From positions 49,778,857 to 49,842,856 of the forward strand of contig NC_057721.1 of assembly GCF_004010195.1 (NCBI RefSeq): a stretch of DNA of 64,000 nt, read 5' to 3'. A program made the position numbers and the translations under genes. Under the pieces are notes generated by a model. The model worked only from the letters and a program-made list of their open reading frames with translations. It was not told the origin of the DNA and did no database searches. Source of the stretch: Chiloscyllium plagiosum. Taxonomy: Eukaryota. Positions 25,545 to 53,059 of this stretch are shown here, one piece after another (positions within the stretch are counted from its first letter, which is position 1; every line of letters starts with the position of its first letter).

Positions 25545-25865
25545 ATTGTTGGTAGATAGCCAACAGCTTTTCCCTATGGTCCGGGAGTCTGCAACTAGAG
25601 GGCAGAGGTTTAGGATGAGAGATACAAGAGTCCAGAGGGGCAGTTTTTTTTCATACTGGGTGTGGCGGGTGTCTGGAACAGGCTGCCAGAGGTAGTTGTG
25701 GAAACGAGTACAATTTTGTCATTTGAAAAATATTTGGACAGGTACATGGATAGAATAGGTATGGAGGGAAATGGACCAAATGCAAGCAAATGGGACTAGT
25801 TTGTGAAAACTGGGTGGCATGAACAAGTTGGGCCAAAGGGTCTGTTTTCATGGTGTTCTACAGAA
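25545..25865 (+). mobile_element. CR1 3' fragment
   Basis: actagagggcagaggtttagg...gggccaaagggtctgttttcat. Confidence 0.8.
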
Positions 25866-25898
25866 TGAAAACAGATCCTTTGGCCCAACTTGTTCATG
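25818..25898. repeat. 34-bp inverted repeat (1 mismatch) with a 13-nt spacer, made from a CR1 3' end
   Basis: catgaacaagttgggccaaagggtctgttttcat / atgaaaacagatcctttggcccaacttgttcatg. Confidence 0.9.
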
Positions 25899-26330: not shown

Positions 26331-26433
26331 ATTTGAGGCTGTCAGAGAAGGTTTTCTGGATGATAACTGGAATAGGCAGACTGTCTTATGAGGAAAGGCG
26401 GCACAGCTTAGGCTTATATCCACTGGAGTTGAG

Positions 26434-26642
26434 GTAAAAACAATGACTGCAGATGCTGGAAACCAGATTCTGGATTAGTGGTGCTGGAAGAGCACAGCAA
26501 TTCAGGCAGCATCCGAGGACAGGCAAAATCGACGTTTCGGGCAAAAGCCCTGATGAAGGGCTTTTGCCCGAAACGTCGATTTTGCCTGTCCTCGGATGCT
26601 GCCTGAATTGCTGTGCTCTTCCAGCACCACTAATCCAGAATC
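26434..26642. mobile_element. Penelope-like palindromic insertion (inverted terminal-repeat pair) inside a CR1 fragment
   Basis: Perfect 86-bp arms at 26466-26551 and 26557-26642, with a ~32-nt tail on the left arm. Flanked by atccactggagttgag (26418-26433) and atccactggaattgag (26640-26655). Confidence 0.85.
26550..26580 (+). ncRNA. Minimal hammerhead ribozyme motif; core and stem II intact
   Basis: CTGATGA-a-gggc-tttt-gccc-GAAA-c-GTC-gat; the 5' arm of stem I is replaced by the inverted repeat. Confidence 0.8.
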
Positions 26643-27543
26643 CACTGGAATTGAGAATAGTAAGAGGCAATTTGATTGAAACACAAAAACATTACAGGTC
26701 TTGACAGGGAAGATATGGAGGGGATATTTTTGCTTATGGGAGAATCTAGAACTAAGGCTCACTGTTTAAAATCCATGAGTTGCCCATTTAAAAATGAAAT
26801 TAGGCAAAATATTTTCTCTAAGGGTCATGAGTCTTTGGAACCCTATTCCTGAAAAGGTTGTGGAAGCACAGACTTTGAATATTTTTAAGACTAGGTAGAT
26901 TCTTGTTCAGCAACGGATTGAATGGTTTATTGGGGTTAGTTGGAATGTAGGTTTGAGGTAAATGGCTGAGTTGGATTTGACCTGCTTCTTGCTCACGGGA
27001 CATACCTGGGCAATTTCTACATCATTTGTAGGGCCAGTGTTGTAGCTGGAAGAATTTGGCCAAGGGTTTGGATACTTCTGGAATATATATCAATACTATT
27101 ACCAGGGTGTTGCAGGCCCCATATCCTTTGCAGTATCCATTGCCTTCATAAGATACATATCATGTGGAGGAGATAAAATTGGTTGAAGACACTGAGGACA
27201 TCTGGCTGAAAATGGACACTAGTTTTCAGCTTTGTCTCTTGCATTGATGTGTTTGGCTCCCCTATTGTTGAAGATGTGGATATTTTTGGAGCCTCTGCTT
27301 ACTGGTAATTGTTCGATTATCCAAAATATTCATGACAGATGTAGCAGTATTGCTGTGTTTAGATCTGATCATTTGATTGAGAGATCACTTAGCCATGTCT
27401 ATTGCATGCTGCTTCCATAGTTTGGCAGGCAAGTCATCCTGTGCTGTATTTTCACCAAGTTGACACTTCATTTTTAGGTATGCCTGGTGTTGCTTCTGGT
27501 ATGACCTTCAGCACTCTTCATTGAACAAGGATTGATTTCATGA

Positions 27544-27823
27544 CAGATTAGATTCCCTACAATGTAGAAATAGGCCCTTCGGCCCAACAAGTCCACACTG
27601 ACCTTCCGAAGAGTAACCCACTCGGACCCATTTCCCTCTGACTGATGCACCTAACACTATGGTGCAATTTAGCACAGCCAATTCACATGGCCTGCACATC
27701 TTTGGACTGTGGGAGGAAACCCACGCAGACACGGAGAATGTGCAAAGTTCACAGGCACCCGACGCTGGAATCGAACCTGGGACCCTGGTGTTGTGAGGCA
27801 GCAGTGCTAACTACTGGGCCACT
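27544..27823 (-). mobile_element. HE1/V-SINE
   Basis: Reverse complement of the 19084 type, with internal deletions. Confidence 0.85.
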
Positions 27824-27865
27824 GCAACTTGATGGTAATGTGTGAATGAGCAATAAGCTGGGCCA

Positions 27866-28184
27866 TTAGATTAGATTAGATTCTCTACAGTTTGGAAACA
27901 GGCCCTTCGGCCCAACAAGTCCACATCGCCCCTCCGAAGAGGGACCCACCCAAACCCATTCCCCTACCCTATATTTACTGCTGACTAACACATCCATCAC
28001 TGTGGGCAATTTAGCATGGCCAATTCACCTGACCTGCGCATCTTTGGATTGTGGGAGGAAACCAGTGCACCCGGAGGAAACCCACACAGACACAGGGAGA
28101 ATGTGCAAACTCCACACAGACAGGCAGGATCGAACCCAGGTGTTGTGAGGCAGCAGTGCTAATCACTGAGACACTGTGCTGCCC
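27866..28184 (-). mobile_element. HE1/V-SINE
   Basis: (ttaga)n tail at 27866, V-domain, head ending gtgctgccc. Confidence 0.88.
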
Positions 28185-29420
28185 TAGGTTAGATTGTGGC
28201 TGAGTAGAATTCAGCTGCTGGCGATGGCTCAATGCTTCACGGATGTTCAGTTTAGAAACGCTATTTCTGTTCAACATTTAAGATGGTGGTAGAATTACAC
28301 GAGTGGAGGGTATCCTCGATGTGAGCACAGGATTTTACCTTCATGAGGACCGTGTGGGAGGTCACCCTACTGCTGTCATGGATGAATGCATCTGCAACAA
28401 GTAGATTGGCGAGGGAGTTGTCAAATAGATTTTTCCCTCGCTTAGTTCTGTCACCATTTGCTGTATACTCAATCTAGCAGCCATGCCCTTATTAACTTGG
28501 CTGGCTTGGTCAGTGGTGGTGCAACTGCTATGTTTGATGACAGTATCTAGGACATTGTAAGGTATGATACTGAGAGTATGACTAGTCTGTGAGATAGTTC
28601 CTTCAATTTTGGCAGAGGACCCCAGAGTTTTGTAAAGGGGATCTTGCAAGGTTGGGATGGCTGTGATTCCCACTGCTGTTTTTGCTGCCTGGATTGATGC
28701 AAGGTGGTCAGTCTGGTTTCATTCCTTTCTTTAGATTTTGTAGTGATTAGTTAAAACCGATTGACTTACTCGGCCATTTCAGAGGGTAGTTAAAATTCAA
28801 CCACATTGTTGTGGGTCGGAGTCACCTGCTGCTCAGACCAGGGAAGGATAGCAGATTTCCTTCCCTATCAGATATTAGGGAACCAGATGGGTTTTATGAT
28901 AATTACATTGCTTACATGTTGACATTTAGGATAGCCTTTAATCTACATAGAATTGAATTAAAATTTCATCATTGCCTGTCGCACAACTGTACAAGATTTC
29001 TATTGAATATATATATTAATATCCAGCAGACTACGCAGTTCCAGACACTGTGCATAATTAGTATCCTTGCCAAATTGCTTCTGTTTAAAAAGGATAGCCA
29101 TCAATGACCCCCTGCACATTGAGGAATGTGTATATAATGATGATTTTGGGTATATTATGGTGTGCAATGTGAAAGAAGCATTGCCCATTCTGACTACTAT
29201 AATTCATCTATTTGAAGTCTGTGATTTGGATTGTTGTAGATGGTGTTGTTCTGGTAAAAATAAATCAGTTTTAGTGCTGTCTGACACCTTACTTTAGAAG
29301 TTAAATTCAAAAGCCTGGGTAGTACATCATTTTCCTGGATGATAAATAGACTGTTTAAGATTAGCTTTTAATGTTACTGCAAAAAAAAAATGAACCGCAC
29401 AAAGGTAAGCAGAAATAAGT

Positions 29421-30098
29421 GACACTACAGGTGACCCCGCTGCACTACACACACACACAAACTCCTACAGATCCAGACACTCATGCAGATCCTCTCTCAT
29501 ACACTCACACATACATATCCCCCCCACCTCCCACCCTCTCACAGACTTGTACCCGTTTACACTCACACACTTTCTCAGACACTCACAACCACCCCTCCCC
29601 ACCCACATTTAAGTTTGTAGGGTGAATTTGTACTTGCAGAATTACATTTTATTTTGCTCAAAACTGAATCCATATAAGATTCTGTAAATCCTTGTTTTTA
29701 GAAATAGAATCAGTCTGAACATTGGGACACAGACTTTAACCTCACAACGTCAATGCATTGTTTGAGCTGACATAGCACCTATTGTTAAAGTTCACTTGAG
29801 AATGTAACTTTAAAAGAAAAGTTCTGGGATTTACATATGAAAGAACAGAAACCAACATGGTCATTCTAAAAGATAAAGAGACTTATACAATCCAGGTCTT
29901 TTTCAATATATCATCTCAGTTGCTTCACACTGTAAACATTTGCTATAAATTCTATGTCTTACGATCTTATGCTCCACAGCCACCTGATGAAGGAGCAGCA
30001 CTCCGAAAGCTAGTACTTCCAAATAAACCTGTTGGACTAACCTGGCGTTGTGTGATTTTTAACTTTGTACACCCCAGTCCAACACCGGCACCCCCAAT
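29421..30098 (+). mobile_element. Non-coding Penelope-like/retrozyme-like insertion (family B) with CA-rich 5' part, hammerhead and poly(A) signal
   Basis: 11-bp TSD cagaaataagt at 29410-29420 and 30099-30109; hammerhead at 29981-30015. Confidence 0.75.
29981..30015 (+). ncRNA. Minimal hammerhead ribozyme motif (family B)
   Basis: cac-CTGATGA-a-ggag-cagca-ctcc-GAAA-g-CTA-gta; AGCT palindrome in place of ACGT; AATAAA at 30022-30027. Confidence 0.8.
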
Positions 30099-47383: not shown

Positions 47384-47682
47384 TCATTGGGCCTTGGTGG
47401 TGTTGGTGGCCCCACCTGCTGAGGTCACAGTGAATGAAGAGTTCTGGCTGGAATCAGTTGACATAGAGGCCATCTGGAGACTCGCTGCATGTCCAGTTGT
47501 CCCGGCAGCAGATATCAGGCTTACGGCTGGGTTGCTGGTGAGTAAGGAGAGGTTTTGTGGGTTCAAAAAGAGAGGGGCTGTCACGATGTTTGGAGTACCC
47601 CCTGGGTTCGCTGCATTGGCAAACAATAGATTTCCACTGGCATCAAGGGAGGTTATAGGAAGTGTTCCACTAGATGCAAGCG
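47384..47682 (-). CDS. POU2F1: POU2F1 (Oct-1) terminal coding exon
   Basis: tttcttctcag acceptor; (A)[55 protein letters not shown]...TKAQ-stop. Matches the Oct-1 C-terminus ([22 protein letters not shown]...KAQ). 299 nt, phase consistent with the preceding exon. Confidence 0.97.
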
Positions 47683-48604
47683 CTGAGAAGAAATGACAAG
47701 AGATCCCTGGTTAGAATAAATGCATTTTGTGAAGCTCTTCATACCATCTGTACATCAAAAAGGGAAATAGAATGGAAAAATGACAGTTTGTGTTATCATA
47801 TATATTAAAATTATTGATAACAATGCCAAAGGCTCATAAAAATGCATTTTCAGATTGCTGTATGTATATATGTGTGATGAAATTAACTTTAGAAAAGTTT
47901 ACAAATTGTAGACTCCATCCAAATAACACAGTAACCCAATTCTTTCCAAACTCAATTCAAATAATCAATGAGCAAATTCCAGAATCATAAAATACTGGTA
48001 CACAATCATTTTGTATTGTAGTTTGAATAAGTGAGTTAAGTTTTCTTTAAAGGAAATAATTAATCAGGGACATGTTAATATCCAACATGCTTGAAGTCAA
48101 AAGGTTTTTCTTTAATTGTTTAATTTCAGATTACTACATTCATGTATAATACCTGATCAATTCATTACCAGATTAGCTACAAGTAGTCTAATGAAGTTAA
48201 TACAGGCAGTTAAAAATACATTTGCACTAACAAATATTGCAAATTTCAGTTTACAAAAATAAATCACTTAAACGTTATGTCATAACATGTTTTGCCTCTG
48301 TATCAATTTCTCTTGCCAACTATGGTTTAACGCAATTTAAAACCATAGCCTATGGTTTTACTATAAACATACTTAGCTTTTGTGAGCTCATATCATTTAC
48401 TGCCTGATGTACCTCATTGATTTAATTTTCCAAATCTTTACATTTCAATAAAATGTTGAGGCTGTCTATATCTCTTTCAGGTAGATGTTATGTATTTATC
48501 CGATTTTTCTAAATGGGAACTACAGAATCAGGCCTTTTCTGAAATTAAAACTAAAGTCCAGTAAGTACTCATTGGGTCAGACACTATCGCTTGAGAGAAA
48601 AAAA

Positions 48605-52480: not shown

Positions 52481-52572
52481 TGCTGAAAATGTGTTGCTGG
52501 AAAAGCGCAGCAGGTCAGGCAGCATCCAAGGAGCAGGAGAATCGACATTTTGGGCATGAGCCCTTCTTCAGG
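52481..52572 (-). mobile_element. Penelope-like terminal-repeat fragment
   Basis: Reverse complement is homologous to 52933-53010 (ggatgctgcctgacctgctgcgct...ccagca). Confidence 0.75.
52540..52572 (-). ncRNA. Decayed hammerhead motif (CpG-type transitions in the core)
   Basis: Minus strand CTGAAGA-a-gggc-tcat-gccc-AAAA-t-GTC-gatt; GAAA changed to AAAA, so presumably inactive. Confidence 0.65.
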
Positions 52573-52932
52573 AGAGAACATGGAGAGAACTGACACCCAT
52601 GGTGACAAGGTGATTGTTAGGGCCAGGGATTTTAAATTGGTGGAAGGCATTAGATGAGTCGTAGATACAGTGTAAGTGACACTCTTTGAAATAACGGCTT
52701 GATGTTCAGGGGCCCAGTGACGTGCCTGAGAGTTGGGTGTTCAATCTCTTCCAGACACCTTTGAAATTCCTTGCTACAGAGAGCTGCCAGGACAGAATCA
52801 GTGTGTATACTTAAGACGGAGATAGATTCTTGACCAGTAGGGGAACTAAGGGGACGGGGTAAGGGCAAGAAAGTGCATGTGAGGAATATCATATCAGACA
52901 TGATTCTATTGAATGGCAGAGGAGGACAGAGG

Positions 52933-53059
52933 CCTGAAGAAGGGCCTGTGCCCGAAACGTCGAATCTCCTGTTCCCTGGATGCTGCCTGACCTGCTGCGC
53001 TGTTCCAGCAATAAAGTTTCAACTTTGATCTCCAGCATCTGCAGACCTCACTTTCTCCT
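52933..53059 (+). mobile_element. 127-bp Penelope-like terminal-repeat insertion in a CR1 3' end
   Basis: Perfect 15-bp TSD agaggaggacagagg at 52918-52932 and 53060-53074; starts at the hammerhead core; internal AATAAA near 53010. Confidence 0.85.
52934..52965 (+). ncRNA. Minimal hammerhead ribozyme motif; core and stem II intact
   Basis: CTGAAGA-a-gggc-ctgt-gccc-GAAA-c-GTC-gaat. Confidence 0.8.

What the first reader, a model, noticed from the sequence alone, without database searches (positions are those of the whole stretch)
26418..26655. Perfect 86-bp inverted repeat whose apex is the ribozyme core
Seen: 26466-26551 and 26557-26642 are exact reverse complements around a 5-nt loop (gatga) that is part of CTGATGA. 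Only the + strand has a full core. The left arm has a ~32-nt tail that the right arm lacks. A 16-bp target duplication with 1 mismatch flanks the insert. Established: inverted terminal repeats with a tail are a Penelope hallmark. Inference: either a very recent insertion or arms homogenised by intra-palindrome conversion (the TSD has a mismatch but the arms have none). If transcribed it gives long dsRNA that masks the ribozyme and could feed Dicer or ADAR. As DNA it could form a cruciform.
Basis: partly seen in the sequence, partly recalled or inferred. Interest (0 to 1): 0.7.

Follow-up and report, generated by a model that had tools for sequence, protein, structure and literature searches.

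The report
Young twin-armed Penelope hairpin insertion
This 206-base DNA hairpin is a real, very recent stub of an abundant Penelope-type jumping gene, one of thousands like it in this genome; its arms are likely identical because both were copied from the same source RNA during insertion, not because they were corrected later.

Summary
In detail: 86-bp arms at 100% identity, GATGA loop, 32-nt tail, 16-bp TSD with 1 mismatch. It is a 5'-truncated insertion of an endonuclease-bearing Penelope-like element (18,711 exact tail copies). A tailed and a tail-less pLTR end are joined head to head through a 3-nt CCT/AGG overlap. Read contigs cross both junctions, and a related species has the empty site with G, so the TSD 'A' is a later substitution. 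Conversion is not needed: the arm equals non-hairpin siblings (0/118), and family-wide arms diverge as much as TSDs (3.4% vs 2.0%). The apex recurs at 52 loci, in several subfamilies and both loop orientations (25:17). That fits twin priming and not a master hairpin. The ribozyme has lost the 5' strand of stem I. Side results: family 5' ends pile up just ahead of the core and, about 8-13-fold over downstream controls, at the predicted cut site. A fold-back copy of this locus on another scaffold is probably an assembly artefact. The architecture is published, and this scan noted such hairpins many times on other DNA.

The parts
26418..26433 (+). Left target-site duplication (ancestral G at 26428)
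   Evidence: related-species contig has a single copy with G (X10 record 9)
26434..26465 (-). 32-nt PLE tail (likely the stretch between two RT start sites)
   Evidence: tail-less arms start at family position 29-38 in 51 of 56 hairpins; PMC11167929
26434..26551 (-). Tailed 5'-truncated pLTR copy (118 nt), stops at the 5' edge of stem II and lacks CTGATGA
   Evidence: 0/118 differences to non-hairpin copies L038 and L062
26549..26551 (.). 3-nt CCT/AGG overlap shared by both copies (the join)
   Evidence: sequence compared with parent-like L038; same join at 52 loci
26552..26556 (+). Unpaired loop GATGA, part of the tail-less copy
26549..26642 (+). Tail-less inverted pLTR copy (94 nt)
26550..26577 (+). 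Minimal hammerhead motif: CTGATGA, stem II GGGC/TTTT/GCCC, GAAA, CGTC; predicted cut 26577/26578; stem-I 5' strand missing
   Evidence: sequence; min-HHR definition in PMC4209133 Results
26640..26655 (+). Right target-site duplication (derived A at 26650)
   Evidence: X1 contig 26617-27400 with 0 differences
26380..26960 (+). Older host repeat interrupted by the insert (CR1-like LINE 3' part; label recalled, left edge approximate)
   Evidence: 37 of 40 listed matches of the right flank are 72-79% identical; two relatives read GGAGTT at the site

Best explanation
This is a real, very young, 5'-truncated and likely dead-end insertion of an endonuclease-bearing (likely Neptune-type) Penelope-like retrotransposon, whose two arms were likely made together by twin priming. 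Inferred steps: the enzyme nicks both strands about 13-16 nt apart, and each 3' end primes reverse transcription on the same or a sibling RNA, one at the tail end and one about 32-35 nt inside. Both cDNAs stop near the ribozyme core, where family copies end most often. They anneal through CCT/AGG, and repair fills the gaps. Shown: the anatomy, both junctions, the empty site, recurrence, and mirrored subfamily variants. The arms are therefore identical at birth, none has mutated since, and the TSD took one G>A. If transcribed, the RNA would be a long hairpin with a non-functional ribozyme.
For: Family: 18,711 exact tail matches. Longer copies carry a GIY-YIG frame next to the pLTR (E 5e-4, just under the Pfam cut-off). 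A 78%-identical protein has RT motifs, a CxxxxCxxC linker and GIY-YIG. Recurrence: 28 of 91 apex-blind tailed copies were flagged as hairpins, with varied joins. 2,120 loci have apexes 0-10 nt ahead of both cores (several families). 52 have this exact apex. TSDs are 11-20 nt, mostly 13-16, in 56 of 74 hairpins. Built afresh each time: several subfamilies share the join, diagnostic sites agree between arms in 50/51, 50/53 and 40/45 loci against shuffled means of 25, 28 and 11, and loop orientation is 25:17 in 42 of 52 loci. In this orientation neither single cDNA holds both tail and loop, so one fold-back cannot make it (inference). Ends are concentrated at family positions 127-134 (11 of 37 at risk; 0.037/nt against 0.004-0.007 outside 118-134). 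Youth: empty site in organism B, about 2.6% diverged; left junction present in a second study. Both-strand extension and two internal RT starts were shown in vitro for another PLE (PMC11167929).
Against: No experiment shows twin priming for this family, and a 3-nt overlap is short. Arm concordance is also what copying one arm from the other predicts. Why cDNAs stop at 118-134 is not shown: a cap-derived base followed only 1 of 11 such ends. No contig spans the whole hairpin, so perfect identity of the interior rests on the assembly. Right-junction support comes from X1 only, which may be the source sample. The clade call rests on a homologue's linker, with no tree.
Confidence: 0.72

Rival explanations
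1. Self-priming or fold-back (Arkhipova 2013 model, possibly on an antisense template): one cDNA folds at CCT-TCATC-AGG and copies itself, and the loop may flip later.
For: Near-complete arm concordance. A mirrored rare variant at L015 and L004. The model is proposed in PMC3846280.
Against: This locus and 25 of 42 scored loci have the loop on the tail-less arm, which fold-back of the tailed cDNA cannot give. The tail-less end is precise at family position 29-38, as expected of a second RT start. Many joins carry inserted bases or very unequal arms.
Confidence: 0.17
2. An older insertion whose arms are kept identical by intra-palindrome gene conversion.
For: TSD 1/16 mismatch against arms 0/86. 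Both loop orientations could reflect flipping. TSD calling favours few mismatches, which weakens my test.
Against: Arm equals siblings at 0/118. Empty site in a 2.6%-diverged species. Arm mismatches 141/4197 against TSD 14/703; non-CpG 2.5% vs 1.9%, p=0.42. CpG changes are 51 one-sided against 10 mirrored, 6 of the 10 at one common variant. Perfect-arm loci have the same TSD rate (3/162 vs 11/541).
Confidence: 0.05
3. The 206-bp hairpin is itself a non-autonomous element (SINE, MITE or retrozyme-like) copied as a unit.
For: Near-identical full-length 206-bp matches at many loci; nearest differ by 2-6 nt.
Against: Only 52 exact-apex loci against 18,711 tails. The join is present in several subfamilies with mirrored variants and both orientations. 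One search was biased by the query.
Confidence: 0.04
4. Assembly fold-back artefact at this locus.
For: A fold-back copy of this locus exists at G000:C17:38432958-38436345, so the hairpin may trouble assembly. No contig spans the interior.
Against: TSD; tail asymmetry; X1 and X5 cross the left junction, X1 the right; empty site in X10.
Confidence: 0.02

Closest known systems
Insertion unit of canonical EN+ Penelope-like elements: pLTR, adjacent inverted 5'-truncated copy, 30-40 bp tail, TSD (PMC8557442 Fig. 2 legend; PMC3846280 Pen2a_Av)
   Same: Head-to-head inverted pLTR ends, tail on one end, TSD, palindrome at the junction
   Different: No ORF (206 bp only); TSD 16 bp against 8-10 bp in Adineta; join lies inside the hammerhead core
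PAc/Poseidon of Anolis in vitro (PMC11167929)
   Same: Two RT start sites define the tail; both strands are extended; uncleaved RNA is the main template (both arms here run past the cut site)
   Different: Other clade (linker Zn-finger in the homologue). That paper saw no RNA-seq ends at the ribozyme cut, whereas this family shows an excess of genomic ends there
Minimal hammerheads (min-HHR) of metazoan PLEs (PMC4209133)
   Same: CUGAUGA / stem II / GAAA / palindromic ACGU / GUC; opposite-strand pairs 100-700 bp apart were noted there
   Different: Stem II is 4 bp rather than 7-8; stem I is lost at this locus; one core only
LINE-1 twin priming (recalled, no call)
   Same: Two target strands prime on one RNA; inversion joined by microhomology
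   Different: L1 gives non-overlapping inverted segments; here both cDNAs copy the same 86 nt and give a palindrome

Membership tests
EN+ Penelope-like element | C-terminal GIY-YIG endonuclease next to the pLTR in parent copies | tested here: met
   L055 frame hits PF01541 at E 5e-4, 20.7 bits, cut-off 22.6; L099 gave no Pfam hit but finds PLE-type proteins at 49-78%
EN+ Penelope-like element | RT and EN in one ORF of this family | tested here: inconclusive
   Seen in homologues P0001 and P0003 (RVT_1 below cut-off); no full-length copy was fetched from this genome
EN+ Penelope-like element | pLTR with inverted 5'-truncated copy and 30-40 bp tail | tested here: met
EN+ Penelope-like element | TSD and empty site | tested here: met
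Neptune clade | CX2-5CxxC linker between RT and EN | tested here: inconclusive
   CHRRNCKTC in P0001, 78% identical over the EN part; also a Nematis trait; no tree built
Minimal hammerhead ribozyme | Conserved core and stem II | tested here: met
   26550-26577 on +
Minimal hammerhead ribozyme | Stem I (4-5 bp) at this locus | tested here: not met
   5' strand replaced by the other arm; forcing stem II costs +17 kcal/mol
Minimal hammerhead ribozyme | Self-cleavage | not testable with these tools
   Only indirect family-level end counts
Independent hairpin element (MITE/SINE/retrozyme) | One master copied as a unit: fixed loop orientation and one lineage | tested here: not met
   25:17 orientations, several subfamilies
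Conversion-maintained palindrome | Arm divergence below neutral paired divergence | tested here: not met
   TSD ascertainment bias noted

The most novel reading that the evidence does not exclude
The family's scars record the whole Penelope integration cycle in a vertebrate germ line. Both nicked strands prime at two fixed sites on one RNA, the cDNAs run off at the RNA's 5' end just ahead of the hammerhead or, in about 4% of copies, exactly at the hammerhead cut, and they are joined head to head. The excess of ends at the cut site would be genomic evidence that the supposedly sluggish minimal ribozyme cleaves in vivo and that cleaved RNA is still copied.
Probability: 0.5. Interest if true: 0.55.

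Novelty: new member of a known kind. Interest (0 to 1): 0.27.

Why it matters
The locus itself is an ordinary young insertion with no shown function. Its value is as one clean data point for how Penelope elements make their inverted, tailed ends, which is still unsettled (self-priming in PMC3846280; unvalidated later steps in PMC11167929). The family-wide excess of ends at the predicted ribozyme cut bears on the open question of whether these ribozymes act in vivo. In practice such perfect hairpins may cause fold-back duplications in assemblies.

Tried and rejected
Rfam scan: 0 hits. A DNA search with the 70-nt tail end returned nothing because common words are skipped. Gene conversion: rejected. 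Apex set by ribozyme cleavage: rejected for this locus, since both arms pass the cut site by 21 and 29 nt; only 6 loci genome-wide have a cut-site-to-cut-site apex, and that pattern omits the query's own subfamily. Cap signature suggested by earlier notes: 1 of 11 ends at 127-134 was followed by C; C follows AAT in several rows, seen by eye and not counted, so unresolved. No RNA holder was listed and no RNA run was laid. X6 contigs stop short of both junctions, so they say nothing on polymorphism. The duplicated right flank was laid only to 27400, so the right junction of the C17 copy is unchecked against reads. The protein atlas gave no result. Searches listed no paper on shark PLE hairpins, PLE twin priming or genomic ends at the cut site; the library lacks most subscription papers, and no supplements were read, where such details may sit.

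Full report
Observation. The coordinates are right: 86-nt arms at 100% identity, loop GATGA, a 32-nt left tail and a 16-bp TSD with G26428/A26650. The hairpin folds at -200 kcal/mol, z -24.75. The insert is 26434-26639 (206 bp), with ATC at 26640-26642 shared between arm and TSD. It interrupts an older dispersed repeat (the CR1-like label is recalled). Rfam found nothing.

Identity. The tail has 18,711 exact matches in the own genome. Longer copies continue into a GIY-YIG frame (one of two frames hit Pfam, just under cut-off). The best homologue, named by its source as a Chiloscyllium punctatum protein and 78% identical, has RT motifs, a CxxxxCxxC linker and GIY-YIG. This is an EN+ Penelope-like element, likely Neptune-type. 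Against a parent-like copy (L038), the insert is a tailed 118-nt copy on - (26434-26551) and a tail-less 94-nt copy on + (26549-26642), overlapping by CCT/AGG. The + copy keeps CTGATGA, stem II, GAAA and GTC but has lost the 5' strand of stem I, and opening stem II costs 17 kcal/mol. The ribozyme is thus truncated as well as masked.

Reality and age. In one search (4 of 24 listed runs laid, all contigs), X1 (possibly the source sample) crosses both junctions, with 0 differences from 26617 to 27400. X5 (another study) crosses the left junction. X6 is uninformative. X10 (organism B, 31 differences in about 1,180 nt) has one contig that skips 26429-26650: the empty site, with G. The insertion therefore likely postdates that split and the A is derived. 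No contig spans the interior. The tailed arm has 0/118 differences to two non-hairpin copies.

Conversion test. Of 74 hairpin rows, 56 were kept (TSD of 11 nt or more with at most 2 mismatches, arm overlap of 25 or more, tail-less second arm); 18 were dropped. Arm mismatches were 141/4197 (3.4%) and TSD mismatches 14/703 (2.0%); non-CpG 2.5% vs 1.9%, p=0.42. CpG changes were 51 one-sided and 10 mirrored. Perfect arms occur in 13 of 56 (7 of 38 with 80 nt or more), with an unremarkable TSD rate of 3/162. One mismatch has a 16% chance of lying in the TSD. TSD calling biases TSD divergence down and part of the set was picked by likeness to the query, so weak conversion is not excluded, but none is needed.

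Recurrence and mechanism. In an apex-blind sample (first 90 of the 100 listed tail matches on C1, 91 distinct tailed arms), 28 were flagged as hairpins with varied joins and 14 ran into gaps (a few flags are doubtful). The exact apex occurs at 52 loci. 2,120 loci, across families sharing the core, turn 0-10 nt ahead of both cores. Among the 52, the tail is on the core-less arm in 25, on the core-bearing arm in 17 and unclear in 10. Subfamily sites agree between arms in 50/51, 50/53 and 40/45 loci. Each hairpin is therefore likely built afresh from one source. Tail-less arms start at family position 29-38 in 51 of 56, and TSDs are mostly 13-16 nt. Ends are densest at 127-134, just ahead of the core (50 arms, 26 ends, 24 censored). 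With both-strand extension and two RT starts shown in vitro (PMC11167929, parts 1-2 of 4 read), twin priming with a microhomology join is the best reading. Simple fold-back cannot give this orientation, because no single cDNA has both tail and loop (inference).

Ribozyme cut site (family level). 5 of the 91 blind arms, about 7% of those not cut by gaps, end at position 97, the predicted GUC^GAUU cut; one of the five is ambiguous. Genome counts with one anchor (query's own subfamily not covered; 16,713 continue to 106): end 97, 297 matches, 28 of 30 checked true; end 96, 68, 15 of 15; end 99, 29, 6 of 15; end 104, 31, 12 of 15. After assumed capture fractions these are about 770, 270, 58 and 99 events, and still 554 against 116-207 under harsh assumptions. 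Only three control positions were used, and pausing or microhomology is not excluded. This locus was not made from cleaved RNA.

Second copy. G000:C17:38432958-38436345 holds window 26466-29459 at 99.87%, preceded by a fold-back of the right flank centred on the same apex, with no tail and no TSD seen; it ends in a CA repeat. X1, X5 and X6 contigs pass 27036 unbroken, and depth on the right flank is not raised (4.5, 9.8, 14.2 against 4.8, 14.5, 14.5 on the left, loose-end table cut). It is probably an assembly artefact; I put a real hairpin-seeded duplication at about 12%.

Context. A POU2F1 C-terminal exon lies on - at 47384-47710 (E 2e-35), so the hairpin is about 21 kb downstream. Read-through would give the core-less strand. 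Expression is untested.

Literature seen: PMC8557442 (passages), PMC4209133 (abstract and Results), PMC3846280 (passages), PMC6155905 and PMC6765202 (passages); no supplements. The architecture is known. Earlier notes of this scan describe the same hairpins, twin priming, run-off and cut-site excess on other DNA; they are unchecked and are not counted as support.

Verdict: a real, young, ordinary member of a known kind; interest 0.27.

Noticed in passing
G000:C17:38432958-38436345 (L030, L158): 3.4-kb copy of this locus beginning with a 965-bp fold-back on the same apex; a roughly 113-bp tandem duplication lies just left of it. Probably an assembly artefact.
   Followed up: partly
family-wide; L182-L211: Excess of 5' ends exactly at the predicted hammerhead cut. 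L199-L201 go from that end straight to the second RT start site, like a template jump.
   Followed up: partly
window 47384-47710 (-): POU2F1 C-terminal coding exon ending KAQ-stop (Pfam PF19536, E 2e-35).
   Followed up: partly
window 25818-25898: 39-bp, 92% inverted repeat with a 3-nt spacer; looks like two LINE/SINE 3' ends tail to tail (label recalled).
   Followed up: no
window about 60-234, 29984-30090, 52491-53044: Other Penelope-type pLTR pieces: a non-hairpin copy of the same family (92%), a second family with a CTGATGA core, and an older inverted pair.
   Followed up: no
L014, L026, L174: Hairpins with this or a similar apex that carry the tail on both arms.
   Followed up: no
L049, L178: Hairpins whose arms appear to come from different subfamilies, a hint of two RNA templates.
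   Followed up: no
L091, L204, L017: Several copies are joined to the same other repeat end, suggesting template jumps or a preferred target.
   Followed up: no
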